Source of the DNA: Escherichia phage Cyrano
Length of the DNA: 64,000 nucleotides
Strand: one strand, 5' to 3'
Sequence record: OV696614
Below the pieces are notes generated by a model that worked only from the letters and a program-made list of their open reading frames with translations, ran no database searches and was not told the DNA's origin. Of the stretch, positions 5,885 through 62,113 are shown piece by piece (position 1 is the stretch's first letter; each line of letters starts with the position of its first letter). The translations under genes and the position numbers were made by a program.

Positions 5885-5890
5885 TAAAGA

Positions 5891-5913
5891 AAACCCGCCT
5901 GTTGGCGGGTTTA
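5891..5913 (+). terminator. rho-independent terminator after polymerase gene
   Basis: Hairpin AAACCCGCC-TGTT-GGCGGGTTT followed by T/A-rich tract. Confidence 0.6.
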
Positions 5914-6732: not shown

Positions 6733-7332
6733 TTATGCGCATTTCGCAATATCTTTGCGGCGTTTAATCAGTTTCTCCGCAATTTGCTCTATTTCGTTGA
6801 AATCTTTCGAGACGCTGTTTCGAAGCGCCAGATTCCATTTACTCAAAGTTCGGGCATTTTGGACAATTTGATCGCCCTCTTTAAGTCGTCCGTTATTCAT
6901 GAGCCATTCAGCCACATCAGCCCAATCCCAGAGAGGAGACTGGCCTTTTATGCGTTGTACAGGGCAAGGGAAGTCGCCGCTTCCGCGCTTACCGTCTTTG
7001 AGCAACGCCACTGCCTGGCGAGACAGGTCTGTCAGTTCCGCGATATCGCTTAAGCCCACAAGAGCCGAGTCGACGGATTCAACAATTGCACCGATACCGG
7101 CTGATTCAATATTGTCGACCGCAGATGCGATAGCTGCATCAAGTGATTGTGCTTCGCGGTCAAATTCTACATAGACGGAGTTTCCATATGCGCAAATTAG
7201 CGCATCGTCACAGCCGTTTTGGTACAGCGCGTCTTCCAGTCCTTCCGTCTCATACGATACGCCTGAGAGCGTCAGAGTGAAGTTATAAAGCGCCATAGTT
7301 TTCCTTTGAAGATAGTTGGACAGTTTCTGCAA
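6733..7332 (-). CDS. putative HicB-like antitoxin / DNA-binding protein
   Basis: Immediately downstream (same strand) of the HicA-like ORF; N-terminal region resembles the HicB fold and is followed by an HTH-like segment (DLSRQAVALLKDGKR). Assignment from motif resemblance only. Confidence 0.35.
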   Translation of the reverse strand: MQKLSNYLQRKTMALYNFTLTLSGVSYETEGLEDALYQNGCDDALICAYGNSVYVEFDREAQSLDAAIASAVDNIESAGIGAIVESVDSALVGLSDIAELTDLSRQAVALLKDGKRGSGDFPCPVQRIKGQSPLWDWADVAEWLMNNGRLKEGDQIVQNARTLSKWNLALRNSVSKDFNEIEQIAEKLIKRRKDIAKCA

Positions 7333-15764: not shown

Positions 15765-15773
15765 TAGCACCAA

Positions 15774-16250
15774 CCACTGCGGTGAGTAGTCTGCTCACCG
15801 CATTCGTATCCAGCTCATTATCCACTGTAGTCAGTAACAAAACCTTCCTACATATCTGCTAACCACTGTAGCGAGTAGACAGCCTTTCATTCGCATCAAA
15901 CAACCACTATGGTGAGTATTGGAGTGAGATGTCCAGCGGGTATCCACTATGGTGAGTAAGCCTTTGCTGTTTTCAGTGGATATCCACTCGCCACAGTGGA
16001 TACGCTCAAAGATGAGGGCGACAACAACCACTATAGACAGTAAATTTTCCAAGATACCCAGTGACCACTAACCTCGCAGCCCTTGTTTCATCAGTGTTAG
16101 TGATCACTAACATTTAATTCAGTATTTGCATTCTACTGCCTACAGTGGTTATCAACAGATAACGATACTCACTATAGTGGATAGCGAATTACAGATATAA
16201 GTAAGGCTCACTACAGTGGATAGTGAGCCTTACTACTAACTACAGTGGTT
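15774..16250. repeat. iteron array downstream of repA (incA-like), about 11 copies in both orientations
   Basis: Repeated core CCACT(A/G)T(A/G)G / CTA(T/C)AGTGGATA, e.g. CCACTATGGTGAGTA, CCACTGTAGCGAGTAG, CACTATAGTGGATAG, CACTACAGTGGATAGTG, plus the palindrome CCACTCGCCACAGTGG. Confidence 0.7.
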
Positions 16251-16253
16251 GGG

Positions 16254-17309
16254 CTATTTGCGAGTCTTTGCCTTGCGCAACTCTTCGAGAAGCGCCAGTT
16301 CTTCTTTACTCAACATGACCATTTTGCCTTCTTTTTCGTCAGGCACAACGTCGATAATGTCATCTTGATTCTCATCTGGGAGGCTATATTCCGTCTCATC
16401 ATTATCGATTTTTGTTGATATTTGTGCCTGGCGTAACTTTGGCCGCCTATAGTGGATGACGAAGTAGACCGAGTTTCCGCGCTTAACTTCCGTGTAATCG
16501 AGATATCCTATCTCTCGCAGCTGTTCCATAGCCTTTCTTACCGTCGCATTCTGAGTAATAGTGCGACTTGTCAGATTAAGTCTGGCGCGTAAACGGGCTA
16601 GTGATATTGGTGCCGGATCAGGCGGCAAACTTTCAATAAAAGTATAAAGCGCCTGAGCGGATTCTTTTCTTGAGAGTTCGTTTATAGCCCGGAGTTGCAG
16701 AAGAACCTTTTTGTCGAACTGGTAGAGTTCGAAAATCTTGGGATCTGCTTTCAGTTCGACCGTATCGTGCTTGACACTATATTTTGCCGTTTGCACAAGA
16801 TGCGTTACGTAAAACTCATCAGAGCCTTTGCTACGGAACGAGATGGTATTTGTGGCAATACGGCTTAGCGAACTGTCCAGGCGTTTGCGTAACTTCGCTG
16901 ATGACCTGGCGGTCGGAATGCCACACAGCCTTACAAACTCAACGAACGGCAACGTGACAGTATCGCCAACGACCTTGTGTTTGGCAAACGCGTGGATTAT
17001 TCCCACCCACGTTTTAAAGTCGTTATCCATATCAAGCCGAAGGCCAGAGATCCTTATGTCTTCGTACCCTTCGGCTTTTGCCAGAGACAGCTGTTTGAGT
17101 TCAGCAGAGGCATCCATAGAGACCATTTGCCCCTTTCTTCCTCTGGATGTCGATTTCAGCGTCGGAACGAAGAGGCCCAGACGCATCAAAGCAACAGGCT
17201 GAACAGTGTTATTAGTGTTAGGAACCAACGTAACAACTTCGCCTGTCTTTTTATCTGTTTCTGAAAATGCTTCAACGATCGCTATGTTTTTATTGCCGTT
17301 TTCGCTCAT
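16254..17309 (-). CDS. repA: iteron-binding replication initiator (RepA/Rep_3-like)
   Basis: 351 aa flanked on both sides by iteron arrays; C-terminal half has a winged-helix-like pattern typical of Rep_3 initiators (…ALYTFIESL…[12 protein letters not shown]…[19 protein letters not shown]…). Confidence 0.65.
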
Positions 17310-17355: not shown

Positions 17356-17473
17356 TACAGTGGATAGTAGCACTCATCACAGCGGTTATCCTACCGTCTA
17401 TAGTGGTTTTTCTCCTCTCTATAGTGGTTGCTTTGCTCCCTATAGTGGATTATTCGCTCTCTATAGTGGATAT
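17356..17473. repeat. iteron array upstream of repA (incC-like), 22-bp periodicity
   Basis: CTATAGTGG repeated four times at 20-22 bp spacing (17397-17473) plus two degenerate copies (TTACAGTGGATAG, CACAGCGGTTATC). Confidence 0.7.
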
Positions 17474-17474
17474 C

Positions 17475-17966
17475 GATCATGTCTGAAGGCAGATGGCACA
17501 ACGGTTTGAGGTGGGCGGGGATCTTATTGGGTCTTTATGGGTCTCTTTGGTTCTCTTTGTGATCTGAATTACTGGATCGGGCCTGTGGATAAAAATCAGA
17601 GGATTTCAAGAACAGGTAACTCTACTCTTCTGTGGATATTTAAGGACATAAGAATCATGACTAAGAGTAGAGTTTAAAATATATCTATGTATATCAGTAT
17701 GTTAATGAAGAATTAAGTCATTAAGTTATCCATAAAAGACAATGTGCTCTACTCTCTACAGTGGATATATACAGCTCTCCAGAGTGGTTGTTTTACTCTT
17801 CATAGCGGTTATTCAGCTCTCTACAGAGGTTTCTTTGCTCTCCATAGTGGATGGCAACACCCTTTCAGACCAGTAACCGCAACGGCTAGAGGCGATCGGG
17901 GATCTCTTTGGATCTTCTATTTGATCTTACTTGGGATCTCTTATTTGGATCTATCCAGTGGATAAC
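17475..17966. promoter_or_regulatory. origin-like region: DnaA boxes, AT-rich segment, second degenerate iteron set and GATC clusters
   Basis: Perfect DnaA box TGTGGATAA at 17585-17593 and near-matches at 17631, 17726 and 17958; degenerate 21-22 bp iterons at 17744-17870; six GATC sites within 17894-17951; a related degenerate block at 17510-17578. Confidence 0.55.
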
Positions 17967-49156: not shown

Positions 49157-49891
49157 ATGAAAAAGTTGAAAAGTTTAGAAATCCCTGGAACTGGTTATAA
49201 ATTCTTTATGGACAACGCGGAGTGTGCACCTAACGCGTTGGAAAAAATACAAAGTCTTATCAACAGCCTTACTGAAGAAGCGAAAGAACTGAAGAGCGAG
49301 GCGACAAAGGACAATACAGCTAAAATCCAATGCTTAAATCTCGTCTCTTATTGTTTATATCAAGTATCCAAAACACTGATTAAAGGCAATATCTATTACG
49401 ACGATGAAGACACCTCGACACCTGAAGAAAAAGATAGCGATGAAGAACTCTATGAAGATATCTCTACTAGTGCGGGTCACGCTGCCTTCGATGCTATGGG
49501 TGAATCGTCAGGCATCAGATCATTTGTTGAACAGAACAATTCGACAATAATGATTGAGTACTGTGAACAAACAAGCTCCAAGGCCATACATGTTCTTCAC
49601 GATGTTGCTGCAGGGGTTCGCTGTGAGGCTGAAGCGGTCAGAAAAGATGTATTTGGTGCAGACAGTAATACCGTGAAAGCGTTTATCAACAGTGCTCTGC
49701 TAAATTCTTACTCAAACCTTATAGTCAATGCGGCACTATGCGCAAATTCAGGTGAAGAACACATTGTCATAACTGAAACCAAACATGAGCATCAACAGTC
49801 ACCAACCATAGAAGAGGTAACTGCATTGGCTATCAAACAGGCGAGTGAAATTAGTGATGAAATTCTCTCTCTGCTAAACAAAACTAAGTAA
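49157..49891 (+). CDS. hypothetical protein, AT-rich gene
   Basis: 244-codon ORF with low GC and an acidic central segment; no recognisable motif. Confidence 0.45.
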   Translation: MKKLKSLEIPGTGYKFFMDNAECAPNALEKIQSLINSLTEEAKELKSEATKDNTAKIQCLNLVSYCLYQVSKTLIKGNIYYDDEDTSTPEEKDSDEELYEDISTSAGHAAFDAMGESSGIRSFVEQNNSTIMIEYCEQTSSKAIHVLHDVAAGVRCEAEAVRKDVFGADSNTVKAFINSALLNSYSNLIVNAALCANSGEEHIVITETKHEHQQSPTIEEVTALAIKQASEISDEILSLLNKTK

Positions 49892-49994
49892 AACATTGAT
49901 AATGGCGGTCACAATTTGATTCTTTTCTATAAGAATCCGTTGATCGCCACTACTCCCCTTCCATACCCGCAACCACATCCTTAAATATCAATAA

Positions 49995-50790
49995 GTTATA
50001 GTTGTTTATACAATCAAGAAAACAACTGAATAACAGATCAACGAAACGTCAACGCTTTCACCCGATTTGGCCTAAAAAATTGACGTTTTCACACATCACT
50101 GCTTATACCCGTAATTCTACGCAGCAGACAGCACCACAGCGTTCAATTTTCACCACAGACGACTCAACACACTACCAACAAAAACACACGCTCAAAATCG
50201 CTCCCGTTGCGTTACATAACCATATAAACAACTTATTTTCAGGCATAACAAAACAACTAAATAACACATATGCCATTACCCAAAACAACCAACCTCTTTA
50301 TGGCAGGCTACCGAAAAGACCCACCTCTTCTTCCCAGGCTACCGGACAACCAACCTAACTTTCACAGGCAATCCGAAAACATTCATACGCGCGATACCCA
50401 CGACACGCCATTACCCAAACAGCGAAGAAACACCAGAATCACTGAAACCCCAACGAAGCCTGTAACCGCAAGGTTTCTCTCAATCCCAAAAGACACGAAA
50501 CATAACAATCACGGGAAACGCCATTACCCAATACACGAATAACTACAAAAGCCTTTCACACACTCCAGACAAACAACTCAAACACAATAACGAAAGGAAT
50601 CGCCCACCTGCCATTACTCCATACACGGAGAAGAACAATCACCAAAACGACGAGAACACCCCATAGAAGAACCACCGCAAAACTAACGAAACCACATACA
50701 CCGACAGAGAAAACAACACACCCAATTCACCAACAGAAATAGTCGCCGTATAGAACGTTCTGGAAGGAGTGAGCATTAACGCCTATAGAG
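49995..50790. repeat. G-depleted CA-rich non-coding segment with GCCATTACCCAA direct repeats
   Basis: About 800 nt with very few G on the plus strand; GCCATTAC(C/T)CAA(A/T)ACA recurs at about 50271, 50408, 50519 and 50600; CAGGCTACCG recurs at 50303 and 50336. Confidence 0.55.
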
Positions 50791-50939
50791 AGGTTGAAAC
50801 AGATAAAACACGAAGAAAACACAACATGTATAGCGAACAAGACAGGTATGTATAAGTGGGGAGGGAAGGAGGGGTGTCGCCTCCTTTTTCGTATTTATTC
50901 AACTCCTGATTTTATCCCCCGTAACACCCCTACGGTCAG

Positions 50940-51100
50940 CCTTCGGTCCATACAGGGAAAAGGCTGCATCCCGCTACAGAAACGGCTGGGTTGCCTTCGG
51001 GGAACGGCTGGAGGTTTTCAGGGAAACGGTCGAGTTGCCTGTGTGGATTTCGGGAAAAGGCTCGATGCCGGTTCAGGAACGGCGGCGTACCGGTATAGCG
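50940..51100. repeat. array of GGAAACGGC-type direct repeats
   Basis: CAGGGAAAAGGCTGC, CAGAAACGGCTGG, GGGGAACGGCTGG, CAGGGAAACGGTCG, CGGGAAAAGGCTCG and CAGGAACGGCGGCG at roughly 20-25 bp spacing; a similar array lies at 54604-54720. Confidence 0.55.
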
Positions 51101-51425
51101 TGAGGGAGAGTTGCGGCTACCCACCTGTAATGTGCGGGAAGAAGAGAGGCGCTCACGTGCAGGCGAACTTACTTACCGCAGGATTCCCTCTGAATGCCCA
51201 ACTACAGCGTAATTGTGCCAGACAGCCAACGGGCCACAATCGATTTCAGTAGGTTTTCGGGGAGATGATTATTCTGCCCACCAGCCACCTTCGGCCACTA
51301 AATCAGAATAATGTAAAAAGTGTACTCGGTACTGAACCTGAAAACTCACTGCCAAAACCACATTCACCGGAATAAAATCCTTTTTCGCCTTTGCGTTATT
51401 GCGATAATAACACCATCAAGAAAAC

Positions 51426-51776
51426 ATGTTGTTTAAGGATTGCTTTATGTTTGCAAATATCGACATCAACCAAATTAAGAAATTGACTCAAAAAGAGTTT
51501 GACCAGTTTTATGAGTTAGAAGGTTGGTCTTCCACTCTGATTAATTCAAGATGGGTGCTGGAACTGATGACTCGTGATGACGCACCTGCTTTGATGATCA
51601 GCGACCTGGGTGAAGATGCTGACTTTATGGATATGAGCGAATTTTGTGTGGACACATACAACCGCAGCCAGAAGTACTACTTCACATGCGATAGCGAAAA
51701 TGACGTGATTTCTAAGGTCTATCTTCACCTCGTCCAGCATTGGGACGTTCAGGAGTTTCTTGAGGTATTCGCGTAA
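51426..51776 (+). CDS. hypothetical protein (small-gene cassette)
   Basis: 116-codon ORF preceded by CGATAATAACACCATCAAGAAAACATGTTGTTT promoter-like motif. Confidence 0.45.
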   Translation: MLFKDCFMFANIDINQIKKLTQKEFDQFYELEGWSSTLINSRWVLELMTRDDAPALMISDLGEDADFMDMSEFCVDTYNRSQKYYFTCDSENDVISKVYLHLVQHWDVQEFLEVFA

Positions 51777-51930
51777 TCACAACCAAAGCCAGCAATGCTG
51801 GCTTAACTTAATCTGTAGCCGCAGGGAAGAACCTGCATATCGCTCATGCACCTGATCAATATGCTTTGTAGCCGTTTTCTTACTGGTATTATTTACGCCA
51901 TTGAGAAAACAAGTTGTTTACGGAGTTGTG

Positions 51931-52242
51931 ATGAAAAAATCATTGGTTCTTGGTCTGGACAAAGACCAGAAGAGAAAAGAGAAGCCTGCGCTGGTTGCTC
52001 AATTAACTTTGCTGGACATCGTTGCCAATGGAACCTCTATTCGTCTGTTCCGTGAAACAGCGGTGTCTTTCGATAAAAACACCTTTACTCGTTATGTAAT
52101 GAATGTTCGTCGCCAGCGTGGAAAAGGCTGGGTGGCATTTCAAAGAATGTGGCCGGAACATCAGCTCGAACTGGCTTTGATGGAAGTTAACCGCGTGGCC
52201 CAGCAAGAGATTCAGAGAGCATCAGTGATGGCAATAGCCTGA
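51931..52242 (+). CDS. hypothetical protein (small-gene cassette)
   Basis: Start set at ATG 51931 (GGAG RBS) after the AAAACAAGTTGTTT motif; followed by a terminator hairpin at 52277. Confidence 0.45.
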   Translation: MKKSLVLGLDKDQKRKEKPALVAQLTLLDIVANGTSIRLFRETAVSFDKNTFTRYVMNVRRQRGKGWVAFQRMWPEHQLELALMEVNRVAQQEIQRASVMAIA

Positions 52243-52276
52243 TAATGTGCAAGTGGTAATTAGTCGACAGTACGAC

Positions 52277-52307
52277 AGCCCCGCCATCCTTACGGGGCTT
52301 TTTTTGT
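52277..52307 (+). terminator. rho-independent terminator
   Basis: Hairpin CCCCG-CCATCCTTA-CGGGG followed by CTTTTTTT. Confidence 0.55.
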
Positions 52308-52369
52308 ATTGTAAGTACATACTTACGATCATAGAATATAAAAATAACCAAAACACTACGGAGAGTGAA

Positions 52370-52765
52370 ATGACCGTTAAACGCGAAAAACTGACAGTTG
52401 ATGTTTACTATGCCTCTGAAACCGCCGAAGGTAAGAATGTGGCAAAAATCACCGTTGTTACGTACAACACCGAAACTGGCGCCGAAGTCCAGGCCAGTAC
52501 GATCGTGCGTAAAGGTGATGCCTCCGGCGGCGAGTACGCGACTCAATACCAGTCTATTTTCGATGCAACTGACCCGCTGCTGCTGAAAATCGAGAACTAC
52601 TTCCGCCAGGTTGATGAAGAGGTGTTTGAAACCATGATGAATATGGTTAACACCGTATTCGCCTCCAGCCTGAATACCAACACTACCTGGATTGGTCAGT
52701 ACGGCCTGCGCATTACCTCTGGCATTCCTGCCGACACCTTAATCCCTGAAAGCGTATTCGCTTAA
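52370..52765 (+). CDS. hypothetical protein (small-gene cassette)
   Basis: Start set at ATG 52370 with GGAGAG RBS; followed by terminator hairpin AATGGCGCG-TAAA-CCGCGCCATT. Confidence 0.45.
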   Translation: MTVKREKLTVDVYYASETAEGKNVAKITVVTYNTETGAEVQASTIVRKGDASGGEYATQYQSIFDATDPLLLKIENYFRQVDEEVFETMMNMVNTVFASSLNTNTTWIGQYGLRITSGIPADTLIPESVFA

Positions 52766-52882
52766 TCCTCTTTAAATGGCGCGTAAACCGCGCCATTTTA
52801 TTAAGCCCGATAACAATTTGTTTTCTGCCTTATCTGATTTGTGAAAATGATTTCACTGAAGCAACTTAATAAGGAAACCATC

Positions 52883-53257
52883 ATGGGACTTGATATCTAT
52901 ATCGAGACACAGCCTAAAAACGATCTGAATAACGAGGCATCCAGAAAGCGGGTTGCTTACTTCCGTAAGTTCAATGCGCTCGTTGGGTGGATGGAGCGCA
53001 ACGTAGGTGAAGTCGAAAATTGTGAGCTTTTAGAATTAACGATGAATGACATTTGTTTTCTGAAGGCTCATTTGATGCACATAAACGAAAGTAATTGCGA
53101 AGAGTACTTGCCTACCCGGGAAGGTTTTTTCTTCGGCAGTCAGGAGTACGATGAAGGTTACTGGCATGATGTGGGGGAGTTGAAAGAGCTTGTGGAAGAT
53201 CTGATTAAGAACCACGACTTTCACAATAACAGACTGACCTTCTGCGCCTGGTGGTAA
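52883..53257 (+). CDS. hypothetical protein (small-gene cassette)
   Basis: Start set at ATG 52883 (AAGGAAACC RBS) because the listed start lies inside the conserved upstream motif. Confidence 0.45.
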   Translation: MGLDIYIETQPKNDLNNEASRKRVAYFRKFNALVGWMERNVGEVENCELLELTMNDICFLKAHLMHINESNCEEYLPTREGFFFGSQEYDEGYWHDVGELKELVEDLIKNHDFHNNRLTFCAWW

Positions 53258-53407
53258 ATATGGGCGATTTCAAGAAACGCCTGAAGGAGAGAGCCGAGAT
53301 GGTCAGAAAGCGAAACGCCTCTTCTGTCATCAGATACGCAAGGCAGTTTAGTCGCAACAACAAATCAGTTGAGGAAAAGATCCTTAGCGTAATCGGGCGA
53401 TAATTAT

Positions 53408-53433
53408 TAAGGCCACCAGCATTGGTGGTCTTA
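53408..53433. terminator. hairpin element, one of a near-identical pair flanking the 53587 gene
   Basis: AAGGCCACCAGCATTGGTGGTCTT here and AAGGCCACCAATGCTGGTGGCCTT at 53880-53906, each followed by AAATGAC. Confidence 0.5.
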
Positions 53434-53586
53434 AATGACTTTTAATAACCGAAGGTTAGTTTGAAACCTGGCTATCAACTTCCAGAACCTTTCTTGTGTA
53501 TTCAGCCTGTATTAACTTCTTTTATGCCTTATCTACACTGCGATAATTACACCAACAAGAAAACAACATGTTTACGCAGTGAGGAT

Positions 53587-53874
53587 ATGCTCATGACTGA
53601 TTTCACCATTACCCCTAAAGCACAAAATGTATTCCTTGAATCATGGCTGGACTTGCCGGAAACAGAACAGCAAGAAATGGATCATGTGGATTATGACGAG
53701 CAGGTAAGCACGCGATTCTTCCACTTTGAGGGATGCGTTTACGACATTGCCGACTTCATGCGAGATGACCGCTTCCCTGAATGGCACGCAAGCTATCCAC
53801 TAAACGCCTTTGCCATGCTGATGATCCGTGTGGATGATTCAGGGGATACCATCGACATCGGTCTGCTCCACTAA
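53587..53874 (+). CDS. hypothetical acidic protein (small-gene cassette)
   Basis: Start set at ATG 53587 after the GATAATTACACCAACAAGAAAACAACATGTTT motif; bracketed by the hairpin pair. Confidence 0.45.
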   Translation: MLMTDFTITPKAQNVFLESWLDLPETEQQEMDHVDYDEQVSTRFFHFEGCVYDIADFMRDDRFPEWHASYPLNAFAMLMIRVDDSGDTIDIGLLH

Positions 53875-54078
53875 AGATTAAGGCCACCAATGCTGGTGGC
53901 CTTAAATGACCATCCTGTTTCCCGCAGGCTAAAAACACCAACCTCTTACCTCCAGGCAACCGACAAACCCACCTGTTCCCGTCCGGCTACCGCAACTTTC
54001 CACTTTGACGCCTTATTCGTACAACGATAATTAACACCAACAAGAAAACAATTTGTTATTTACGATAAGGAATTAATC

Positions 54079-54561
54079 ATGAATTTTATCGCTACTGTAA
54101 ACGCACCCGCACATGGCAATATCGCTGTAACGTTCTCTGACATTGAAAAACGAGTACTTGGTGCATGGCGCGACAATGAGACGGTAGAACTGTCAGCACA
54201 AGAAAAATGCATTATTGCACGCGACATCATTGGCAATCGTCGTTACTCGCGGGTATTTGAGAAAGCATATGTGGTAAATTCTGGATTCGGAACGTTCGTC
54301 TTTCCGGTGCGCTCCGGGCGATTCTGCCAGTCCAAGCTGATTGAGTTCGCTACGCAGATTTCTGTCTGGATTAAAACTCAATCGTCGTTCAAATTTTCCG
54401 ACGATGAAGCAGTATCGCAGGGGATGCGGATCGCCAACAATGCGATTAAATGCAAAAACATTACGTATACCGCTGGCGTTGATACATGGAAACTGTTTTG
54501 CGCTAACTTTATGCTGAATGTATACGCAAGCAACCGCATCCACATCCTTGATGGCGTGTAA
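54079..54561 (+). CDS. hypothetical protein (small-gene cassette)
   Basis: 160-codon ORF preceded by CGATAATTAACACCAACAAGAAAACAATTTGTT motif. Confidence 0.45.
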   Translation: MNFIATVNAPAHGNIAVTFSDIEKRVLGAWRDNETVELSAQEKCIIARDIIGNRRYSRVFEKAYVVNSGFGTFVFPVRSGRFCQSKLIEFATQISVWIKTQSSFKFSDDEAVSQGMRIANNAIKCKNITYTAGVDTWKLFCANFMLNVYASNRIHILDGV

Positions 54562-55149
54562 CTGAGAAGAGGGCCAGAAACGGCCCTTTCTCTACAGCCA
54601 CCAGCTGCCGCAGGGAAATTTTCAGAAACGGCGAGGAACGTATTCATGAGCCGACGGGAAACGGCCAGGATTTTTTCGGGAAACGGCTGCATTCGCCTTT
54701 ATGTAGAAAAAACATCGGGAAGCTGGTGGAATCCAACCAGCGGTTGTCGGACAGGTGAGCGGGGAAAATCATGATGACTTTCGTCGCCTGAGACATCCAG
54801 ATTTCTTTCGTAGCGTAATCACATACGTGATTAAGTGGTGTGATTATGTGAAAAATCACGCGCACATAATACGCGAGCGGATACGGAACAAAACAAAATG
54901 CCGATCCGCGCCGACAATTAAACGCGGATCACATAGCAAGAATAAAAGCCAATGATTAACCATACACCATAACGCAATATAACGCGCTTAAATCGCGTTA
55001 ATGCGCTAAGTAATGGGTATGTACTGGTAAGGATATAAAAGCGCGTCTATGGCGTTATTTTGGCGCTTATTTTTATGTTGTTGGAGTGAGTCAAAGACAA
55101 TAAAAAAGCGCCATCATTGGCGCGTTATGGTGGGAGTATTGGAAACGAA

Positions 55150-55172
55150 AAAAGCGCCCATAGTGGGCGCTC
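55150..55172. terminator. bidirectional hairpin, one of an identical pair flanking the 55177-55407 gene
   Basis: AAAAGCGCCCATAGTGGGCGC occurs here and at 55425-55447, each with A-tract on one side and T-rich sequence on the other. Confidence 0.5.
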
Positions 55173-55176
55173 GATT

Positions 55177-55407
55177 TTATTTGTGTAAACTAATTTTGAA
55201 TCCCATTTCTACAAACGCTTTCAACATTAAAAATATATCAGCGTCATTCACGTCTGCTTTTTTTCGCTCCTGGTCGCTCAGTAAGTCAATTTTGCGCGTC
55301 GTTTCATCGATAAACTCGACTGCGCGCCCAGCGTAACCAGCGATCCCAGCGATGCGATTAACAAAATATTCATTGCGCACGTTAACGCCAGCGATAAGAA
55401 TAAACAT
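55177..55407 (-). CDS. hypothetical small protein
   Basis: 76-codon ORF exactly bracketed by the identical hairpins; no recognisable motif. Confidence 0.3.
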   Translation of the reverse strand: MFILIAGVNVRNEYFVNRIAGIAGYAGRAVEFIDETTRKIDLLSDQERKKADVNDADIFLMLKAFVEMGFKISLHK

Positions 55408-55454
55408 GATTAAGCTCCTTAAAAGCGCCCATAGTGGGCGCCAGATTCCATTAA

Positions 55455-56114
55455 TTACGCTTTGAAAGCATCAGCCAGATAGTTATAGAAATCATTTTTA
55501 ATAAAGCGATATTGCTGCGTACCAGCTTTTGCGCTTCCCATTCCTTTGACTTTCTCAACAAGTCCAAGACGTTCGCAAAGATTGATAAGCTGGTTGGCTT
55601 GAGTGTATCCTGCGTCTAATTTTATTTCGTTGGCTTTTTTCGCTTCATTCATTAAATCGAAAACAGCGCCATTTGTGAACGTCTCGATCTCGTCGTTAAT
55701 CATATCGATTAATGCGAATACACGAGATCCGGACATATCAGCGACGGAATAAACACACTTTCCAGCTTTAATGGATTTAACCAGATAAACCAGTTTTTCC
55801 AGAGAATAACTATTAGTCATTGCATCACGGAAAAATACTTCTGGCGCTTGTTTGCTTGCTTTGATCGCATAGTAGAAAACAGAGCACAATTTTTCGTCTT
55901 CTACTGCGTTTACGACGTTGTTGATGAAGTAAGCAAGTTTGGTGGTCGCAGCTTGCATATTTGCTTTGTCTGCTTTTGTGTGCGTACCATTTTTATAATG
56001 TTCGTTATATGTTTGAGTTGCCAGATCTGCTTTTTCGCGCAGCTCGTCGGATACAATGGCAGCAGCTTCAATGATGGACTTTTTAGAAATGATAATGTTA
56101 GTCATGATGGACAT
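55455..56114 (-). CDS. hypothetical protein
   Basis: 219-codon ORF; C-terminal segment may be HTH-like but is not diagnostic. Confidence 0.45.
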   Translation of the reverse strand: MSIMTNIIISKKSIIEAAAIVSDELREKADLATQTYNEHYKNGTHTKADKANMQAATTKLAYFINNVVNAVEDEKLCSVFYYAIKASKQAPEVFFRDAMTNSYSLEKLVYLVKSIKAGKCVYSVADMSGSRVFALIDMINDEIETFTNGAVFDLMNEAKKANEIKLDAGYTQANQLINLCERLGLVEKVKGMGSAKAGTQQYRFIKNDFYNYLADAFKA

Positions 56115-56400
56115 CCTTACGAAAAATTAAAATGAATTTATTTTTTACTGTCGTTAGCTAGCTCGCTTTCGACGAGTTCAATTATCGATACGTGAAAAAA
56201 GATTGCAAGTATTTTTTTTAAATTTTCTGCAGGGATGAAAGTCCTAGAAATAAAAGCGAGATCGTCGAAGGTGTTCCCTAAATAAATAATCAATTCGGGC
56301 TTTTAACCTTATATATTTATACAGAGTGACATTGAAAGAGTTTTAAATGAATGGCATGTAAAATAATAACCGGGCTTAGCCGGTTATTACCCTTATAGAT

Positions 56401-56922
56401 TTAAAATGGAAGGATTCGTTCAACCCAATCGAAGAAAACAAGTATTTTTCTGCCGTCTTCTAATTTAAGAGTGACCTGGCAAGCATCAACGCCTCTTGAC
56501 ACCCCTTCTATTTCACGACCGTCTGTCATGTAGACCCTTATAGATTGGTCGTTTTGATAAGCCTTGCGACATATCGCAAAAAAGTCACGGCGTGATGGCT
56601 GATTGTCAACATAGTCTGGATGTATTGTTAGCCTACCTTTGAACTCGCGAGCAATGCCATCGATTACACCTGATTCAATTGTGCTAATGCGCTCAAGTGG
56701 GAGTCTTATACGATTTTCTTTATCATATGGAAGCGGGCATAAATCTAGCTTATTGCGGGAAGGCATTGTCCCCTGAACGTACATGCAAAACACCTGACCG
56801 TCTTCAAGCGTGACTCTTACAGGAATGTTGTTCTTCCGCCAGAACATAAGTATGTTTTCAGCATGTTCGTAGTCTCGCGGCCAGACTTCAGCCGGTATGC
56901 CGTAGGTGATGTCTTTAACCAT
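56401..56922 (-). CDS. hypothetical protein
   Basis: 173-codon ORF in an AT-rich stretch. Confidence 0.45.
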   Translation of the reverse strand: MVKDITYGIPAEVWPRDYEHAENILMFWRKNNIPVRVTLEDGQVFCMYVQGTMPSRNKLDLCPLPYDKENRIRLPLERISTIESGVIDGIAREFKGRLTIHPDYVDNQPSRRDFFAICRKAYQNDQSIRVYMTDGREIEGVSRGVDACQVTLKLEDGRKILVFFDWVERILPF

Positions 56923-57024
56923 AGTCTACCTTTTTAAGTCTTTTTTGGTCATTATATACATCTCTATGATGCGTAGACAGACTAACCGTACATTCCACCA
57001 AAAATTGATTATGGAATAAGTTTC

Positions 57025-57825
57025 ATGAAGAATGGGGTGAATAAAAAATACTCATTAGCATTGTTAATAGCGGCTTTACTATTAACAGGTTGTGATTCTG
57101 ATGAAGAGCGAGCCATAGATCTAGTTGAAAAGGATATTCGCTCTACACTGCTAGATCCTGATGCTGGTCGGTTCACGAATATGCGAGCTATTCAGTTAGG
57201 TGAAAATAGCTATTCATATATGGTATGTGGAGAGGTGAATGGCAAAAACGTCTTGAACGCCTATACAGGTGCGACCGCATTCAATGCGCACATCTTTGAT
57301 GTTCGTGAACGTAACCCGATTGTATTCGTTACAATGGATAAAAGTGCCAACTCGGCAAGAGAACGATTACGTTTTGAACGCCAAAATCTAGCATGTAAAG
57401 AAAACGGTGTGAAACTTTATCTGGAAAACGAATCTAAAATCAGGAAGGAAAAAGAGAAAATAGATGATTTAAAAAAAACTCCATTAGGTCAGGCTGTGTT
57501 TGATGCAGCAAGTGATTCGACATATGTGAGTAGAGAGTTGGGCGAATCGAGAGGTGTTAGTGAAGTGTATGCAAGAGAAAATGATAAATATGCTCTTGTT
57601 AGCGTCACCAATTATGACACTCCTGACTTTTACAAATTTAGGAAAAAAGACAACGGTGAACTAGAACCTGTTAGGGGACTGTCCTATACCGGCTATCCAT
57701 TCGCGGTTACACTGTGCCATTCTGAACAAACAGATTATGACAAATGTATAACAGAAGAAGAAATCAAGTTGCTTCGAGACGAAAAGAATAAGCTCGATGA
57801 TTTTGTCGTGCCACCAGAAGAATAA
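57025..57825 (+). CDS. lipoprotein of unknown function
   Basis: Signal peptide ending in lipobox LLTGC; AT-rich gene. Confidence 0.5.
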   Translation: MKNGVNKKYSLALLIAALLLTGCDSDEERAIDLVEKDIRSTLLDPDAGRFTNMRAIQLGENSYSYMVCGEVNGKNVLNAYTGATAFNAHIFDVRERNPIVFVTMDKSANSARERLRFERQNLACKENGVKLYLENESKIRKEKEKIDDLKKTPLGQAVFDAASDSTYVSRELGESRGVSEVYARENDKYALVSVTNYDTPDFYKFRKKDNGELEPVRGLSYTGYPFAVTLCHSEQTDYDKCITEEEIKLLRDEKNKLDDFVVPPEE

Positions 57826-58209
57826 CATATACAAAATATTTAATTGCTGTAAAATTTAATCGTTCAGACATAGGGAAAGCCCGACGCCCTCGACAAATCT
57901 TTTTGGTATTGTCGAGGGCGTGTTTCAGATATGCATCCTATTGAACTCTTCAGATTTATAGGTAGATAGCGTTAATTAGCGTTTTTGTTCTTCTCTTTTT
58001 TGCTAATTTCATCACATGCAATATCATCTACTATATTTCTTAGGTCACACGTTTTTATAAATTGTCGCATATATCCTCCGAATTTCTTCGGAGGCGAAGC
58101 CTACAAATATCATTTAGCCTATCAAGATCTTTTTCAGCCGAAGGTATATACATTCAAAAATGTGATGAATGTCACATGCAGGTGCTCTCATACACCTGCA
58201 TGTAGACTA

Positions 58210-58776
58210 TTAATCATTCAATAATCTATATTTTCTTTTGATTAAATCTTCACCTTTTTTGGTGAACACAAAACCAAATTGCGATTTTTTGTTCAGCCTA
58301 AGGACTCTGTTATCCAACGCATCTGTTGATGGAATCAATGTTTGATCATCTATCCAATTAAGCAGCGTAAGAAAGTTCAGCAGCCTCAACGTTGTTGTGC
58401 GAAGCTCTTTCGATATATTTTCAATGCTGGCAATTCGTCTTTCTTTTTTCTCAGGTGGTACAGATAATTGTTCTTGAGATTTCGTGGATAGATAATCAAT
58501 TTCGTTTGTTGCATCGAATGATATGTGAGGCGTAATTTTGCTAAAAAAGCCTTTCGCTGACTCACTTGATAATAAACCAGACCTATTCATATCGTTTGTT
58601 ATTCTGTACAGGAGTGGACTGTGTTTCATTTCTGGATAACGTTGATAAAAGTTAAGCAATTCAAAAGCAGCATTAGCACCAACAAGAAAATCAGAAGGAT
58701 CGCTGACTTTCCAGAAAGAATGATTTTTCTTAGCGCCAGTGGTGTCAACAAATGATAATTCTTTTAACCAACTCAT
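58210..58776 (-). CDS. hypothetical protein, AT-rich, last gene of the helicase operon
   Basis: Start set at ATG 58776 (MSWLKEL...) with AAGGAG RBS; about 188 aa; low GC. Confidence 0.4.
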   Translation of the reverse strand: MSWLKELSFVDTTGAKKNHSFWKVSDPSDFLVGANAAFELLNFYQRYPEMKHSPLLYRITNDMNRSGLLSSESAKGFFSKITPHISFDATNEIDYLSTKSQEQLSVPPEKKERRIASIENISKELRTTTLRLLNFLTLLNWIDDQTLIPSTDALDNRVLRLNKKSQFGFVFTKKGEDLIKRKYRLLND

Positions 58777-58841
58777 GATGTGCTCCTTTCTAACAAGTGA
58801 GCACATCATAGAATTAGTAGATAGGGGGTAAATATGAAATG

Positions 58842-59120
58842 TTACGGCAACCTGCTCAGTATTTCCTCTAGATCTTTTTTTGTCATATTGGAGTTTTCAT
58901 AGATGCGCATGATTTTCTCACGCGTCTTAGCGGAAACCCCAACGGCAGATGTGACTTTGTCAAATTCAGCCATAGTCATCGTCTCCAGAATGGCATTGAT
59001 AACTTCAGCCTTAGACATCTTGATTTTTTTCTCTTTGAGTTTTATTTGGAATTTTCCAAGTTTTTCATTGGCCTTATCAGACAATGCCACCTGGCAATAA
59101 GTTGTTTTCTTTTCGCTCAT
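58842..59120 (-). CDS. small basic protein (possible DNA-binding), coupled to the helicase gene
   Basis: 92-codon ORF whose ATG lies 2 nt after the helicase stop codon; Lys-rich. Confidence 0.4.
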   Translation of the reverse strand: MSEKKTTYCQVALSDKANEKLGKFQIKLKEKKIKMSKAEVINAILETMTMAEFDKVTSAVGVSAKTREKIMRIYENSNMTKKDLEEILSRLP

Positions 59121-59122
59121 AA

Positions 59123-60682
59123 CTAATCTCGTTTCAGAACTCCAAAATCGAATGCGCCATCAATAGGCAATACACCTTCTGCAAAGCCAGGTGTGGTGTC
59201 GATGATGTGTTTTCGCTCATAAGAGTGAGACAACAGGTATTTGTTGCTAATGTCAATGAAATCAGTGATAAAACACACGTTTGCCTGATTCTTCTTGGCT
59301 CGTAAGCCACGACCGACACGCTGTCTCATTTCAACTTCTGCTTTCCCACCACCAGCAAGAATGACCGCACCAACGCTTGGCACATCAACACCAACATCCA
59401 GAATAGTCGAGCCTATTAAAACATCTATTTCACCAGACGCTAAACTGTTCAGCTTTGCTTGCCTTGTCGACTGGTTCGATTCCCCATAAATGAAGTCAAC
59501 TCTAAGGCCGGACTCTTTCATCATTTCCATCAGGATTTGCCCGTGGCGTTTAAGACGAACCAGAGTCATGCAATTGAGAGAATGTTGCTTATAGAGCAAT
59601 GCTTCGCGCACAATGGCCTCGTTACGTCCCAAATTATACACGATCCCCAACTGATAAGCCTTTTGGTAGGCGGTGCTCATACCAACTCTAAAATTGAGGT
59701 GTTTGTTGGCAAGTTCGGCCTTGATTCTGGCCTCGTCTGGCTTGTAGGCAACTTTATGATAAAGGAAGTACGGTTTTGCCAGAATGCCTCGATCAATCAG
59801 GTACTTTTCTGTGACTTTGATTTCAATTCGCCCAGCCACAGCCATCAGACGCATGTTGGCTTCTGTAGAATCCTTCATGAACGGCGTGGCCGTAAGTGCC
59901 AGACGATAGTCTGCGTTCACACATAATCTGGCAATGTCATAGAAATTAGAACCTGAAGACTCATGCGCCTCTTCCAGAATAAGCAGAGACACACTTGAAA
60001 GGAAGCGTTTCACCAAGTCCCGACGTTTGAGGTGGTAGCTTTTCTTATCTGGTGTTGCATCGCGTGGTGGTTCTTCGAGGAAACTTGCAAGAGTTTGAAC
60101 TGTAGCGACGTTGATATGTCGTGATACCTGGAACTCACCCGAGCCAATGACTCCAACCTTTTGGTCTTTTAACCACGGTTCGCCATTTTTGGCGCGGTAG
60201 TCGATGGATCTCTGGAAGTTTTCGGCCATTTGAAACATCAGAACAGAGCGGGTTGTTAAAAATAATGTCATTCGACCGATACGTGCAGCTGCTTTGCAGG
60301 CAACATTAGATTTCCCGCCACCAGTAGCGATCTGCGCAATCATCATTCCCTCTCGAACCAGTGTTTCCACAGTCTGATCCTGATACGCATAATCAGGATT
60401 GTATGGGAATGGGTTAACCGCCGGATTTGGTTTACCAAGCGCCGGGGCTTTGTCTTTGCGGATATGAACACATTTGATGCCCGCCTTGTTCAAGTTCGCC
60501 GCTACAGGCTTGGCAAAGCCAGCAGGGAACGAGTTTTTACTCCAGTTGAACATCGTGCTTGTGCCCTTCCAGTCGCCAGTCTCGACTTCGTAGCTCAACA
60601 TCTGTTGCACCATTTGCTTTACCTTGTCATCTGCGCCAGAAATAAGCGCATTAACTGCGTTAGATACAATCCGAACAGTCAT
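59123..60682 (-). CDS. superfamily 2 DEAD/DEAH-box-type helicase
   Basis: Motif I IATGGGKS, motif II LILEEAHE, motif III LTATP, motif VI QRVGRGLR, in canonical order. Confidence 0.7.
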   Translation of the reverse strand: MTVRIVSNAVNALISGADDKVKQMVQQMLSYEVETGDWKGTSTMFNWSKNSFPAGFAKPVAANLNKAGIKCVHIRKDKAPALGKPNPAVNPFPYNPDYAYQDQTVETLVREGMMIAQIATGGGKSNVACKAAARIGRMTLFLTTRSVLMFQMAENFQRSIDYRAKNGEPWLKDQKVGVIGSGEFQVSRHINVATVQTLASFLEEPPRDATPDKKSYHLKRRDLVKRFLSSVSLLILEEAHESSGSNFYDIARLCVNADYRLALTATPFMKDSTEANMRLMAVAGRIEIKVTEKYLIDRGILAKPYFLYHKVAYKPDEARIKAELANKHLNFRVGMSTAYQKAYQLGIVYNLGRNEAIVREALLYKQHSLNCMTLVRLKRHGQILMEMMKESGLRVDFIYGESNQSTRQAKLNSLASGEIDVLIGSTILDVGVDVPSVGAVILAGGGKAEVEMRQRVGRGLRAKKNQANVCFITDFIDISNKYLLSHSYERKHIIDTTPGFAEGVLPIDGAFDFGVLKRD

Positions 60683-60764: not shown

Positions 60765-61445
60765 ATGGATGTAAAAATCACGATTTTGCAGGTTGATGTT
60801 GCCAACCTTCGCCCGAATACCTGGAACACCAATTCGGTTGGTGCGCAGAATTTTGAAAAACTGAAAGGTTCTATCGAAAAATTGGGCTTTTTTAAGCCAA
60901 TTTTGGCTCGTGAACTTGAAGATGGATTTTTTGAAATCCTCGGCGGCGAACATCGCTGGCGTGCTGCTATTGAGCAAGGAATTTCAACGGTTCCGGTGCT
61001 TTCTGTGGGCAAAATTAGCGATGTCGTAGCTAAACAGATGTCACTGGTGGACAACGAGCGATACGGTGAAGACGACCAAATCGCATTGCAACGCTTCATT
61101 GAAGAAATTCAGTCAGAACTTGACTATCAACTGTCTGAAATCGCCCCGTATGACGACGAAATCTCGATGGTTTTAGCAAAAGAGGCGGCAATCGACCTTG
61201 AAGCACTGGAGGCGTTGTCTCGTGGTAGTGATGAGCCTGTCGATACCGACAAACGAGAGAAAACCGAACGTGTCGGTGCGGAACATCAGACCATGCGCTT
61301 CAAAGTAACTTTCGATGCGTCAGATCGTGTTGCAGAAACCATAAAAAACATCATCAAAGAGCAGGCTATTAACACCGGTAATGAAATGGAGAACGCTGGT
61401 GAGGCTCTGGTGTGGCTGGTCGACTACTACAAGGAGCGTATGTAA
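60765..61445 (+). CDS. ParB/Srx-like N-terminal (ParB nuclease) domain protein 1
   Basis: LRPNTWNTNSV...LKGSIEKLGFFKPILAREL...EILGGEHRWRAA matches the ParB N-terminal domain signature (GERRWRAA-like). Start set at ATG 60765. Confidence 0.65.
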   Translation: MDVKITILQVDVANLRPNTWNTNSVGAQNFEKLKGSIEKLGFFKPILARELEDGFFEILGGEHRWRAAIEQGISTVPVLSVGKISDVVAKQMSLVDNERYGEDDQIALQRFIEEIQSELDYQLSEIAPYDDEISMVLAKEAAIDLEALEALSRGSDEPVDTDKREKTERVGAEHQTMRFKVTFDASDRVAETIKNIIKEQAINTGNEMENAGEALVWLVDYYKERM

Positions 61446-62113
61446 TGACCAAAAAGTTTGAAATCGTATATCGCGACCCGGCAGATCTTATTCCCTATGA
61501 GATGAATGCCAAAAAGCATGATGAACAGCAGATCCGAGATCTGGCCGCAGCCATTAAAAAGCGCGGATTTGACCAGCCAATTACGGTCGATAAGAACGAC
61601 GTAATTATTACTGGCCACGGCCGCCGTGAGGCTGCAATTTTTGCTGGACTTGAGCGCGTACCGGTTATTGTTCGCGATGATCTCAGTGATGACGAGGTTC
61701 GTGCGAAGCGCCTTGAAGATAACCGACTTGCCAGCATTGATTACGATGCAATTAAGCTACAGAAAGAGCTTGAGTCGCTTGTTCTGGACGATATTGAGGT
61801 TTTCGGCTTTGAAGAGCGTGAGTTGAATGTTCTCGTTGGCAGTATGACAGAAGAAATGGACACCGACTCGCTAGTTATCGATCTTGGCGAAGAAACTAAA
61901 CGACAGAAGGATGAACACACCGAGATCAGTCGTGAAGTTGCAGCGGAAGAAGTACGTGTTGTCGACGTATTGGGCTTTAAAACGCTCCCTGCTGGCTCTG
62001 CCATTGTTGTTGGTGATTTGCTTGCCCACATGGAAGAAATGACGGGAGAAAGCGGGGTAGACGCATTTGTGGCATATGCGGAGAAGATCTCTTCCGGGGA
62101 GATGGCTGCATGA
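61445..62113 (+). CDS. ParB/Srx-like N-terminal (ParB nuclease) domain protein 2
   Basis: LIPYEMNAKKHDEQQIRDLAAAIKKRGFDQPITV...ITGHGRREAA is a second ParB-N-like signature; start overlaps the upstream stop (TAATG). Confidence 0.65.
   Translation: MTKKFEIVYRDPADLIPYEMNAKKHDEQQIRDLAAAIKKRGFDQPITVDKNDVIITGHGRREAAIFAGLERVPVIVRDDLSDDEVRAKRLEDNRLASIDYDAIKLQKELESLVLDDIEVFGFEERELNVLVGSMTEEMDTDSLVIDLGEETKRQKDEHTEISREVAAEEVRVVDVLGFKTLPAGSAIVVGDLLAHMEEMTGESGVDAFVAYAEKISSGEMAA

What the first reader, a model, noticed from the sequence alone, without database searches (positions are those of the whole stretch)
50940..54720. Two arrays of GGAAACGGC-type direct repeats flanking the small-gene cassettes
Six or more copies of (C)AGGGAAACGGC(T)-like units at 50953-51090 and five more at 54604-54720, at roughly 20-25 bp spacing in non-coding DNA. 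Arrays like this usually mark binding sites for a multimerising DNA-binding protein (centromere, packaging recognition site or regulatory array). The two ParB-like proteins encoded downstream are obvious candidate binders.
Basis: partly seen in the sequence, partly recalled or inferred. Interest (0 to 1): 0.55.

Follow-up and report, generated by a model that had tools for sequence, protein, structure and literature searches.

The report
Conserved phased protein-binding repeat arrays
Two clusters of a short DNA motif, spaced two helical turns apart, flank a block of small early genes in an SSU5/pHCM2-type phage-plasmid; they are real, non-coding, conserved across the family and look like docking sites for an unidentified DNA-binding protein, but neither RepA nor the ParB-like proteins fit as the binder.

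Summary
The window is the last 64 kb of an E. coli SSU5/pHCM2-type phage-plasmid; its gene coordinates coincide with pLF82 'Cyrano'. Array 1 (50955-51083) has six head-to-tail units with core GRAAMGGY, spaced 22, 22, 22, 31 and 22 bp. Array 2 (54612-54724) has three full and two half units. Simulated sequence never gave more than two units per 150 bp. Both arrays recur at the same positions, in the same orientation and phasing, in phage SSU5, pHCM2, Klebsiella and Enterobacter plasmids, and in a distant Moellerella plasmid whose flanks no longer align. pMT1 keeps array 2 only. Cores are better conserved than spacers, and array 1 gains and loses roughly whole units, so the overlapping ORFs are not genes. 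Both arrays lie next to terminator-like hairpins, outside the annotated genes. The general interpretation, a binding array for a multimerising protein, is supported. The named binders are not. RepA's own iterons have a different sequence. The ParB-like genes sit at background expression in lysogens, have acidic C-terminal halves and show no detectable HTH. Function is unresolved. My ranking: iterons of a second, lytic replication or control locus (about 0.35), centromere for the element's type Ib ParA and small partner (about 0.25), regulatory loop (about 0.12), packaging site (about 0.08). This is a new member of a known kind, of moderate interest.

The parts
50955..51083 (+). Array 1: six head-to-tail units, core G[AG]AA[AC]GG[CT] preceded by GG or CA. 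Cores start at 50955, 50977, 50999, 51021, 51052 and 51074 (spacing 22, 22, 22, 31, 22 bp).
   Evidence: The same spacing pattern occurs in phage SSU5. Relatives show deletions of 22, 23, 44 and 54 bp. Core columns have mean majority frequency 0.84 against 0.67 for spacers.
54612..54724 (+). Array 2: three full units (54623-54632, 54656-54665, 54678-54687) plus conserved half units at 54612-54619 and 54717-54722. Best consensus TTTTCRGGGAAACGGC.
   Evidence: Present in pHCM2, Klebsiella, Enterobacter, Y. pestis pMT1, SSU5 and Moellerella.
54575..54584 (+). Motif match inside the terminator-like hairpin GGGCCAGAAACGGCCC that follows gene 54079-54561. Not counted as an array unit.
   Evidence: Relatives have GGGGCTGGAAACGCCCC here, so the hairpin is kept but the motif is not.
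50863..50889 (+). Terminator-like hairpin plus T run, directly upstream of array 1 and at the end of the A+C-rich non-coding stretch.
51447..54561 (+). Block of six or seven small genes of unknown function lying between the arrays. Four of them have the shared ~55-nt upstream element found.
   Evidence: PHROG families of unknown function only.
54859..55172 (-). Cluster of minus-strand terminator-like hairpins ending the leftward operon. Array 2 therefore lies between convergent transcription units.
51278..54729 (.). Cluster of five Chi octamers (CCACCAGC at 51278, 53413, 54598; GCTGGTGG at 53892, 54722) in and around the inter-array segment. Two of them bracket array 2.
   Evidence: Similar clusters occur in pHCM2 and Moellerella.
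60765..62113 (+).
   Evidence: Expression data.

Best explanation
Shown: the two arrays are cis-acting, non-coding arrays of an asymmetric site (core GRAAMGG; best units TTTTCRGGGAAACGGY). The sites are arranged head-to-tail about every two helical turns and have been kept in place, orientation and phase throughout the SSU5/pHCM2 phage-plasmid family. Inferred from this anatomy: each array is coated on one DNA face by several copies of one sequence-specific protein encoded by the element, and the two coated arrays, 3.0-3.7 kb apart, may pair. Favoured role, also an inference: they are the iterons of a second, RepA-independent replication or replication-control locus used by the phage's own replication machinery (DnaB-like helicase, primase, Pol III alpha, gp32-like SSB, UvsW-like helicase). 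On this reading they form a bipartite origin, or an origin plus a cis enhancer, comparable to ori/crr of satellite phage P4. The binder is not identified.
For: The repeats are real and far beyond chance. A 22-bp phased, head-to-tail array of a 10-16-bp asymmetric site is the classical iteron layout (own knowledge of P1, F, R6K and RK2 iterons); RepA's own iterons in this window have a 21-bp period. The same six-unit spacing pattern (22, 22, 22, 31, 22) occurs in the plaque-forming phage SSU5. GGTTTCGGGAAACGG units persist in both syntenic gaps of a Moellerella plasmid. Cores are more conserved than spacers. Copy number changes by deletions of 22, 23, 44 and 54 bp, as in tandem iterons. An exact-7-mer scan of the window plus the first 50 kb of NZ_CP117972.1 found no other such array apart from the RepA iterons and one coding-region repeat. 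Both arrays lie beside terminator-like hairpins. Chi octamers cluster between and beside the arrays in three lineages; this is what one would expect where free DNA ends arise, for example the tail of rolling-circle replication (inference). Two repeat clusters a few kb apart acting together have a precedent in P4 ori/crr (own knowledge).
Against: No initiator gene is adjacent, and the phage replication genes lie tens of kb away. No DnaA-box cluster, IHF site or AT-rich unwinding element abuts the arrays: there is one DnaA-like box at 54855, and the arrays themselves are 52-58% GC. An AT-rich palindromic region upstream of the helicase module of NZ_CP117972.1 is an equally plausible lytic origin. 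Cumulative GC skew carries no origin signal. A change in Chi orientation near the arrays in the E. coli element did not reproduce cleanly in pHCM2 or Moellerella. Nothing here shows binding or replication.
Confidence: 0.35

Rival explanations
1. The arrays are partition centromeres of the plasmid prophage. They would be bound by the small basic protein (117 aa) encoded next to the element's type Ib ParA, forming two segrosome-like complexes, as in arrays of direct repeats bound by small centromere-binding proteins.
For: The element encodes a 222-aa ParA/MipZ-type ATPase followed by a 117-aa basic protein (pI 9.6), outside the window. Both are expressed in the Cyrano lysogen. No obvious repeat array lies next to that operon, and the GRAAMGG arrays are the only other arrays my scan found. 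The partner keeps IKSRTxSxEDE and RSDVxRAA invariant at 30% overall identity between E. coli and Moellerella, matching the invariance of the DNA core. An Acinetobacter plasmid encodes a ParA relative (45% identity) followed by a small protein with a similar motif pattern by eye. Centromere sites far from the par operon are known in prophage N15 (own knowledge).
Against: The arrays lie more than 40 kb from the par operon. The motif is absent from the parA promoter region, where type Ib partners normally autoregulate. That promoter instead carries the AAGAAAACAAGTTGTTT element and several TTGT boxes, which could be the partner's real sites (by eye). The ribbon-helix-helix fold of the partner is only my reading of the sequence; Pfam and PDB profile searches found nothing. 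The 55 Yersinia pMT1 records have array 2, and Yersinia does not appear in the organism summary of the partner search.
Confidence: 0.25
2. The arrays are architectural or regulatory sites. A phage regulator binds both, loops out the 3.5-kb small-gene block, and silences or insulates it.
For: The arrays bracket a discrete block of independently promoted small genes in every lineage. These genes are close to background expression in lysogens.
Against: Neither array overlaps a predicted promoter, and array 2 lies between convergent terminators. Several of the small genes already carry their own operator-like element. Six phased direct repeats are unusual for a repressor.
Confidence: 0.12
3. The arrays are packaging recognition sites (pac), bound in the lytic cycle by the small terminase, by the 88-aa basic protein upstream of it, or by the ParB-like pair encoded in the same gene cluster.
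For: The ParB-like genes lie in one co-oriented cluster with an ABC-type ATPase, an 88-aa basic protein with weak winged-helix matches, and terS/terL. The Chi cluster next to the arrays would protect a cut end (inference). The core resembles a parS or Noc-site half-site (own knowledge; a lead only).
Against: The arrays are 9-13 kb upstream of terS, whereas pac sites of headful phages normally lie in or beside terS (own knowledge). Two arrays 3.5 kb apart are not a known pac layout. The ParB-like C-terminal halves are acidic, with no HTH found. pMT1 lacks array 1, though it is not a functional phage.
Confidence: 0.08
4. The repeats are transcribed and act as RNA, for example as a CsrA-type sponge, since many units contain GGA. 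Alternatively they encode a repetitive peptide.
For: Most units contain GGA. ORFs 50794-51252(+) and 54644-54796(-) overlap the arrays.
Against: There is no Rfam match at E up to 1. The arrays follow terminator-like hairpins and have no predicted promoter. The conserved part extends beyond GGA to AACGG. A 22-bp period is not a multiple of three, and relatives carry frame-breaking indels. The ORF over array 1 is near background in RNA-seq.
Confidence: 0.03

Closest known systems
Iteron arrays of theta plasmids and plasmid prophages (P1 oriR/incA, F ori2/incC, R6K gamma)
   Same: Head-to-tail direct repeats of a 10-20-bp asymmetric site with a period of about 22 bp. Two arrays occur on one replicon, and copy number varies by roughly whole units.
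   Different: The sequence is unrelated to this element's RepA iterons, the arrays are 34 kb from repA, and they lack the adjacent DnaA boxes and AT-rich region.
ori and crr of satellite phage P4
   Same: Two clusters of short direct repeats a few kb apart. In P4 they are bound by one phage replication protein and act together (own knowledge).
   Different: There is no homology. The binder here is unknown, and no P4 alpha-type primase-helicase was found next to the arrays.
Centromeres made of direct-repeat arrays (R1 parC, pSK41 parC, pB171 parC1/parC2, TP228 parH, tubC)
   Same: Clusters of phased direct repeats, sometimes in two blocks, bound by a small dimeric protein. The element has a type Ib ParA and a small basic partner.
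   Different: Known examples abut or overlap the par promoter. Here the arrays are more than 40 kb away, and the motif is absent from the parA promoter.
ParB-parS, Noc-NBS and KorB-OB sites
   Same: The core CGGGAAAC resembles one half of parS (GTGAAACA) or NBS (GGGAAAT). Several units are quasi-palindromic: TTTC-N1-2-GAAA (own knowledge).
   Different: Those sites are single 13-16-bp palindromes, not phased direct-repeat arrays. The ParB-like proteins here have no detectable HTH and are not expressed in the plasmid state.

Membership tests
Rep-iteron origin or control locus of the resident replicon (RepA, Rep_3 family) | Tandem direct repeats of 17-22 bp with about 22-bp phasing | tested here: met
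   Spacing is 22, 22, 22, 31, 22 bp in array 1 and 33, 22 bp in array 2.
Rep-iteron origin or control locus of the resident replicon (RepA, Rep_3 family) | Repeat sequence equals the iterons that flank the element's rep gene | tested here: not met
   The RepA iterons are CTCTCTATAGTGGAT at 15770-16250 and 17370-17870. They show no similarity to GGGAAACGGC.
Rep-iteron origin or control locus of the resident replicon (RepA, Rep_3 family) | Adjacent AT-rich unwinding region and DnaA or IHF sites | tested here: not met
   No DnaA box lies in 49900-51450, and one (TTTTTCACA) lies at 54855. There is no IHF site by the arrays. The arrays are 52-58% GC.
Bipartite phage origin (P4 ori/crr type) | Two clusters of the same short direct repeat, kb apart, on one replicon | tested here: met
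   The arrays are 3.0-3.7 kb apart in all lineages.
Bipartite phage origin (P4 ori/crr type) | Both clusters are bound by the phage initiator and required in cis for replication | not testable with these tools
   This needs binding and replication assays. No initiator was identified.
ParB/parS centromere (type Ia or chromosomal) | Palindromic 16-bp site, or P1-type box A/box B with an IHF site | tested here: not met
   The units are asymmetric and head-to-tail. Only some have a weak TTTC..GAAA dyad.
ParB/parS centromere (type Ia or chromosomal) | Cognate ParB with an HTH, expressed in the plasmid state and encoded with a ParA | tested here: not met
   Only the ParB_N domain was detected. The C-terminal halves are acidic. 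The genes are at floor or background level in the lysogen and lie in the gene cluster just upstream of the terminase genes.
Direct-repeat centromere of type Ib/II systems | Array of direct repeats, plus a ParA and a small centromere-binding protein on the same replicon | tested here: met
   The arrays are as described. A 222-aa ParA and a 117-aa basic partner occur in NZ_CP117972.1, pHCM2 and Moellerella.
Direct-repeat centromere of type Ib/II systems | Repeats adjacent to the par operon or also present in its promoter (autoregulation) | tested here: not met
   No GRAAMGG cluster lies near parA in E. coli, pHCM2 or Moellerella.
Phage pac/cos recognition site | Located in or next to the small terminase gene | tested here: not met
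   terS starts just beyond window position 64000, so the arrays are 9-13 kb upstream.
Phage pac/cos recognition site | Virion DNA ends map to the site | not testable with these tools
   No read data are available here.

The most novel reading that the evidence does not exclude
The arrays and the adjacent Chi cluster mark the place where SSU5-family phage-plasmids generate or process DNA ends in the lytic cycle, that is, a lytic origin or packaging start. They would be recognised by a new kind of binder, for instance the pair of HTH-less ParB-N-domain proteins from the cluster upstream of the terminase genes acting on arrays of parS-like half-sites.
Probability: 0.1. Interest if true: 0.65.

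Novelty: new member of a known kind. Interest (0 to 1): 0.4.

Why it matters
SSU5/pHCM2-type phage-plasmids are common in clinical E. coli, Klebsiella, Enterobacter and Salmonella; more than 700 PLSDB records carry these arrays. They carry resistance genes, and they contributed the backbone that Y. pestis pMT1 shares with this family. Apart from repA, their cis-acting sites are, as far as I could find, uncharacterised, and the literature search returned nothing on this motif. The arrays are the most conserved non-coding feature I saw in the region. They are a concrete handle for finding the lytic origin, the centromere or the packaging site of the family. Any of these would help explain stability, incompatibility and induction of these elements. 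The kind of element is familiar, so the finding is useful rather than surprising.

Tried and rejected
1. RepA as binder: rejected, because its iterons differ.
3. ParB-like 1 structure: the model failed (pLDDT 38.6 with a shallow alignment), so my reading of a C-terminal ribbon-helix-helix is untested. Pfam found nothing in the C-terminal fragments.
4. The 92-aa basic protein at 58842-59120(-), expressed in lysogens: its putative DNA-reading strand is not conserved between lineages, so it is unlikely to read an invariant motif.
5. Collection scans. Of the viral-contig hits to two exact units, 56 of 58 are SSU5-like; the other two are unrelated high-GC contigs with only two copies.
6. Rfam: no match.
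7. Cumulative GC skew of two complete or near-complete genomes rises monotonically with gene orientation and gives no origin signal.
8. A Chi orientation switch as an origin marker looked suggestive in the E. coli element but did not reproduce in pHCM2 or Moellerella.
9. Profile searches of the ParA partner against PDB and Pfam found nothing.
10. Literature: no paper on the motif or on SSU5 origins or pac sites was found. One 2026 preprint on an SSU5-like element could not be opened.


Full report
IDENTITY OF THE WINDOW. The region 50700-55000 is 98.5% identical over its full length to about 170 E. coli IncFIB plasmids. It also matches induced phages such as PhiR41_1, and more distantly Klebsiella, Enterobacter, Salmonella (pHCM2) and Yersinia (pMT1) plasmids and phage SSU5. 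Gene coordinates in the published table for the LF82 phage-plasmid 'Cyrano' (PMC9928086, S1 Table) equal window coordinates plus 44379 for every gene I checked. The window is therefore, in effect, the last 64 kb of that element. It carries repA (16254-17309, minus strand), nucleotide-metabolism and replication genes, cargo (metG, apbC), the small-gene block, a leftward operon (55177-60682), and a gene cluster that starts with two ParB-N-domain genes and runs into terS/terL just beyond position 64000.

THE OBSERVATION. Both arrays exist as described. Array 1 has six units on the + strand, with cores starting at 50955, 50977, 50999, 51021, 51052 and 51074; spacing is 22, 22, 22, 31 and 22 bp. 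Array 2 has three full units at 54623, 54656 and 54678 (spacing 33 and 22 bp) and two conserved half units at 54612 and 54717. A further match at 54575 is part of the terminator-like hairpin of the preceding gene and is not kept as a motif in relatives. The largest same-strand cluster of G[AG]AA[AC]GG[CT] within 150 bp is six. One hundred Markov simulations of the window never exceeded two, and sequence with the arrays' own dinucleotide content yields 0.07 hits per 150 bp. Outside the two arrays the motif occurs at about the chance rate, both in the window and in the first 50 kb of NZ_CP117972.1, which carries the part of the element not covered by the window. An exact 7-mer cluster scan of those two sequences finds only the RepA iterons, array 2 and one repeat inside a coding region.

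CONSERVATION. The arrays recur at the same two places, on the same strand relative to the genes, in pHCM2, a Klebsiella plasmid and an Enterobacter plasmid. Y. pestis pMT1 has array 2 only; IS elements lie where the array 1 region should be. The plaque-forming phage SSU5 has array 1 with exactly the same spacing pattern (22, 22, 22, 31, 22) and array 2 with 34 and 22 bp. A scan of IMG/VR for two exact units 11-13 bp apart gave 58 loci. Of these, 56 are SSU5-like; the other two are unrelated high-GC contigs with just two copies. In alignments of 32 distinct array 1 sequences, core columns have a mean majority frequency of 0.84 against 0.67 for spacers. In array 2, units and half units are invariant while the spacers between them differ between lineages. 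Two of those units were the search pattern, so for them only the BLAST-derived loci count as independent. Relatives differ in array 1 by deletions of 22, 23, 44 and 54 bp, which is roughly whole units.

The strongest single result comes from a Moellerella wisconsensis plasmid (Morganellaceae). It has the same gene order but no alignable non-coding DNA. It carries GGTTTCGGGAAACGG units in both syntenic gaps: four units beside the end of the helicase operon, and two or three after an A+C-rich stretch. The element is therefore old and under selection. Its basic word is GRAAMGG, often preceded by a T tract that gives a weak TTTC..GAAA dyad.

NOT CODING, PROBABLY NOT RNA. A 22-bp period is not a multiple of three. 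The 22- and 23-bp deletions would shift the frame of ORF 50794-51252, and the PGAP ORF 54644-54796(-) is broken by 10- and 5-bp indels in Klebsiella relatives. Array 1 follows a terminator-like hairpin at 50863-50889. Array 2 lies between the hairpin after gene 54079-54561 and a cluster of minus-strand terminator-like hairpins at 54859-55172. No promoter-like site falls in either array. Rfam gives nothing at E up to 1. The ORF over array 1 is near background in lysogen RNA-seq.

WHO BINDS. RepA is excluded on sequence grounds: its iterons (CTCTCTATAGTGGAT, 21-bp period) flank repA on both sides, as in P1 and F. The ParB-like proteins match only the ParB N-terminal domain in Pfam. ParB-like 1 has GGEHRWRAA in place of the GERRxRA box. 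Its alignment to Spo0J beyond residue 100 is weak. Both C-terminal halves are acidic (pI 4.3 and 4.1). In Cyrano lysogens they are at 5.0 and 9.5 normalised reads against a background of 9.8. The terminase genes are equally silent, whereas the true ParA and its partner reach 50 and 89. They are not the partition proteins of the plasmid state. My attempt to model ParB-like 1 failed (pLDDT 38.6), so the possible C-terminal ribbon-helix-helix that I read in both proteins remains a lead only.

WHAT THE ARRAYS DO. Nothing here shows function, so I rank by anatomy.

(a) Iterons of a second replication or control locus, about 0.35. The phased, asymmetric, head-to-tail layout with unit-wise copy-number change is the iteron signature. 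Two clusters a few kb apart have a precedent in P4 ori/crr. The element has a complete phage replication machinery that presumably needs an origin other than oriR. Chi octamers cluster between and beside the arrays in the E. coli element (5 of 17 in 3.45 kb), in pHCM2 (6 of 30 in 3.6 kb) and in Moellerella (3 of 10 in 1.3 kb), as expected where free ends arise. Against this: no adjacent initiator gene, no DnaA or IHF sites, no AT-rich element abutting the arrays, and a rival AT-rich palindromic region upstream of the helicase module.

(b) Centromere for the type Ib ParA system, about 0.25. The system exists and is expressed. It has no obvious array next to it, and its partner protein is as conserved in its putative DNA-reading part as the motif is. 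However, the arrays are more than 40 kb away and the motif is missing from the parA promoter.

(c) Regulatory loop around the small-gene block, about 0.12.

(d) pac site, about 0.08. The arrays lie 9-13 kb from terS.

(e) RNA or peptide, about 0.03.

COMPARISON WITH KNOWN SYSTEMS AND NOVELTY. The arrays work like iterons or direct-repeat centromeres. They fail the membership tests for RepA iterons (different sequence, no origin accessories), for ParB/parS (not palindromic, no expressed HTH ParB), for type Ib/II centromeres (not at the par operon) and for pac sites (not at terS). I found no description of them in the searchable literature. I class them as a new member of a known kind: a family-specific, deeply conserved binding-site array whose protein partner and role are still open.

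LIMITS. All functional statements are inferences. The expression data come from one strain and from lysogenic conditions only. The Chi statistics are post hoc. The loci obtained by pattern search are biased towards keeping two units of array 2.

Noticed in passing
window 50000-50830 (+); also L004 ~5000-5900, L005 ~5000-5900, L067 ~6400-7300, L190 7560-8240 (reverse strand): About 800-900 bp of non-coding DNA that is A+C-rich and G-poor on the + strand (GC skew -0.3 to -0.65, AT skew up to +0.65). It lies between a promoter-like site at 49875-49903 and the hairpin at 50863-50889. The composition is conserved in pHCM2, Klebsiella, SSU5 and Moellerella. There is no Rfam hit, and the ORF inside it is at floor expression in lysogens. 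It may be a long unstructured lytic-phase RNA or a Rho-loading region.
   Followed up: partly
window 50280-50371 and 53910-54005: A second repeat family: three tandem units of about 31 bp (CCRAMAAC/ACCAACCTCTT...CAGGCTA), with similar units upstream of gene 54079. Moellerella has related units in its A+C-rich stretch.
   Followed up: no
window 51278, 53413, 53892, 54598, 54722; pHCM2 71024-73519; Moellerella 51207-52464: Chi octamers are about 9-fold enriched in the element overall and cluster between the two arrays in three lineages. Two lie in terminator-like hairpins built around CCACCAGC...GGTGG (53407-53434, 53878-53905). In the late region Chi is almost uniformly co-oriented with transcription.
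   Followed up: partly
window 14216, 36170, 36899, 48735, 48786, 51422, 51907, 53561; L066 ~39370 (upstream of parA): A shared operator-like element, AAGAAAACAA-N-TTGTTT, lies about 15-25 nt upstream of the start codons of many small genes and of the type Ib parA. Its half-site AAGAAAACAA is also upstream of parA in Moellerella. It could be a DNA operator or a 5'-UTR site for an RNA-binding repressor.
   Followed up: partly
window 56401-56922 (-): A full-length match to Pfam Flag1_repress (the FljA repressor of phase-1 flagellin; E 1e-80), with a weak Hfq/LSM-like stretch in the C-terminal part. It is conserved in pMT1, pHCM2 and SSU5.
   Followed up: no
window 15770-16250 and 17370-17870: RepA (Rep_3 family) iterons, CTCTCTATAGTGGAT with a 21-bp period, lie on both sides of repA. 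This is the P1/F-like origin plus control-locus layout.
   Followed up: yes
L066 39408-40435 (NZ_CP117972.1; outside the window): A type Ib ParA (222 aa) plus a 117-aa basic partner with a flexible Arg/Pro-rich N-terminus. Both are expressed in lysogens, and no adjacent repeat array was found. The partner is labelled 'RelE/ParE putative toxin' in the Cyrano annotation, which looks wrong.
   Followed up: partly
window 54826-54870: The palindrome TAATCACATACGTGATTA and a nearby GTGATTATGTGAAAAATCAC lie downstream of array 2. GTGATTATGTGAA is conserved in pHCM2, pMT1 and SSU5 but not in the Klebsiella lineage.
   Followed up: no
window 58842-59120 (-): A 92-aa basic protein just downstream of the UvsW-like helicase gene. 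Its sequence pattern reads like a ribbon-helix-helix (my reading only), and it is one of the genes clearly expressed in the Cyrano lysogen (about 12 times background).
   Followed up: partly
NZ_CP117972.1 1-7000 versus 110500-120874: This reference plasmid record repeats the segment from the helicase gene through the ParB-like genes to the terminase genes at both ends. The record is 120.9 kb against about 108 kb for relatives, so this is probably an assembly overlap rather than biology.
   Followed up: no
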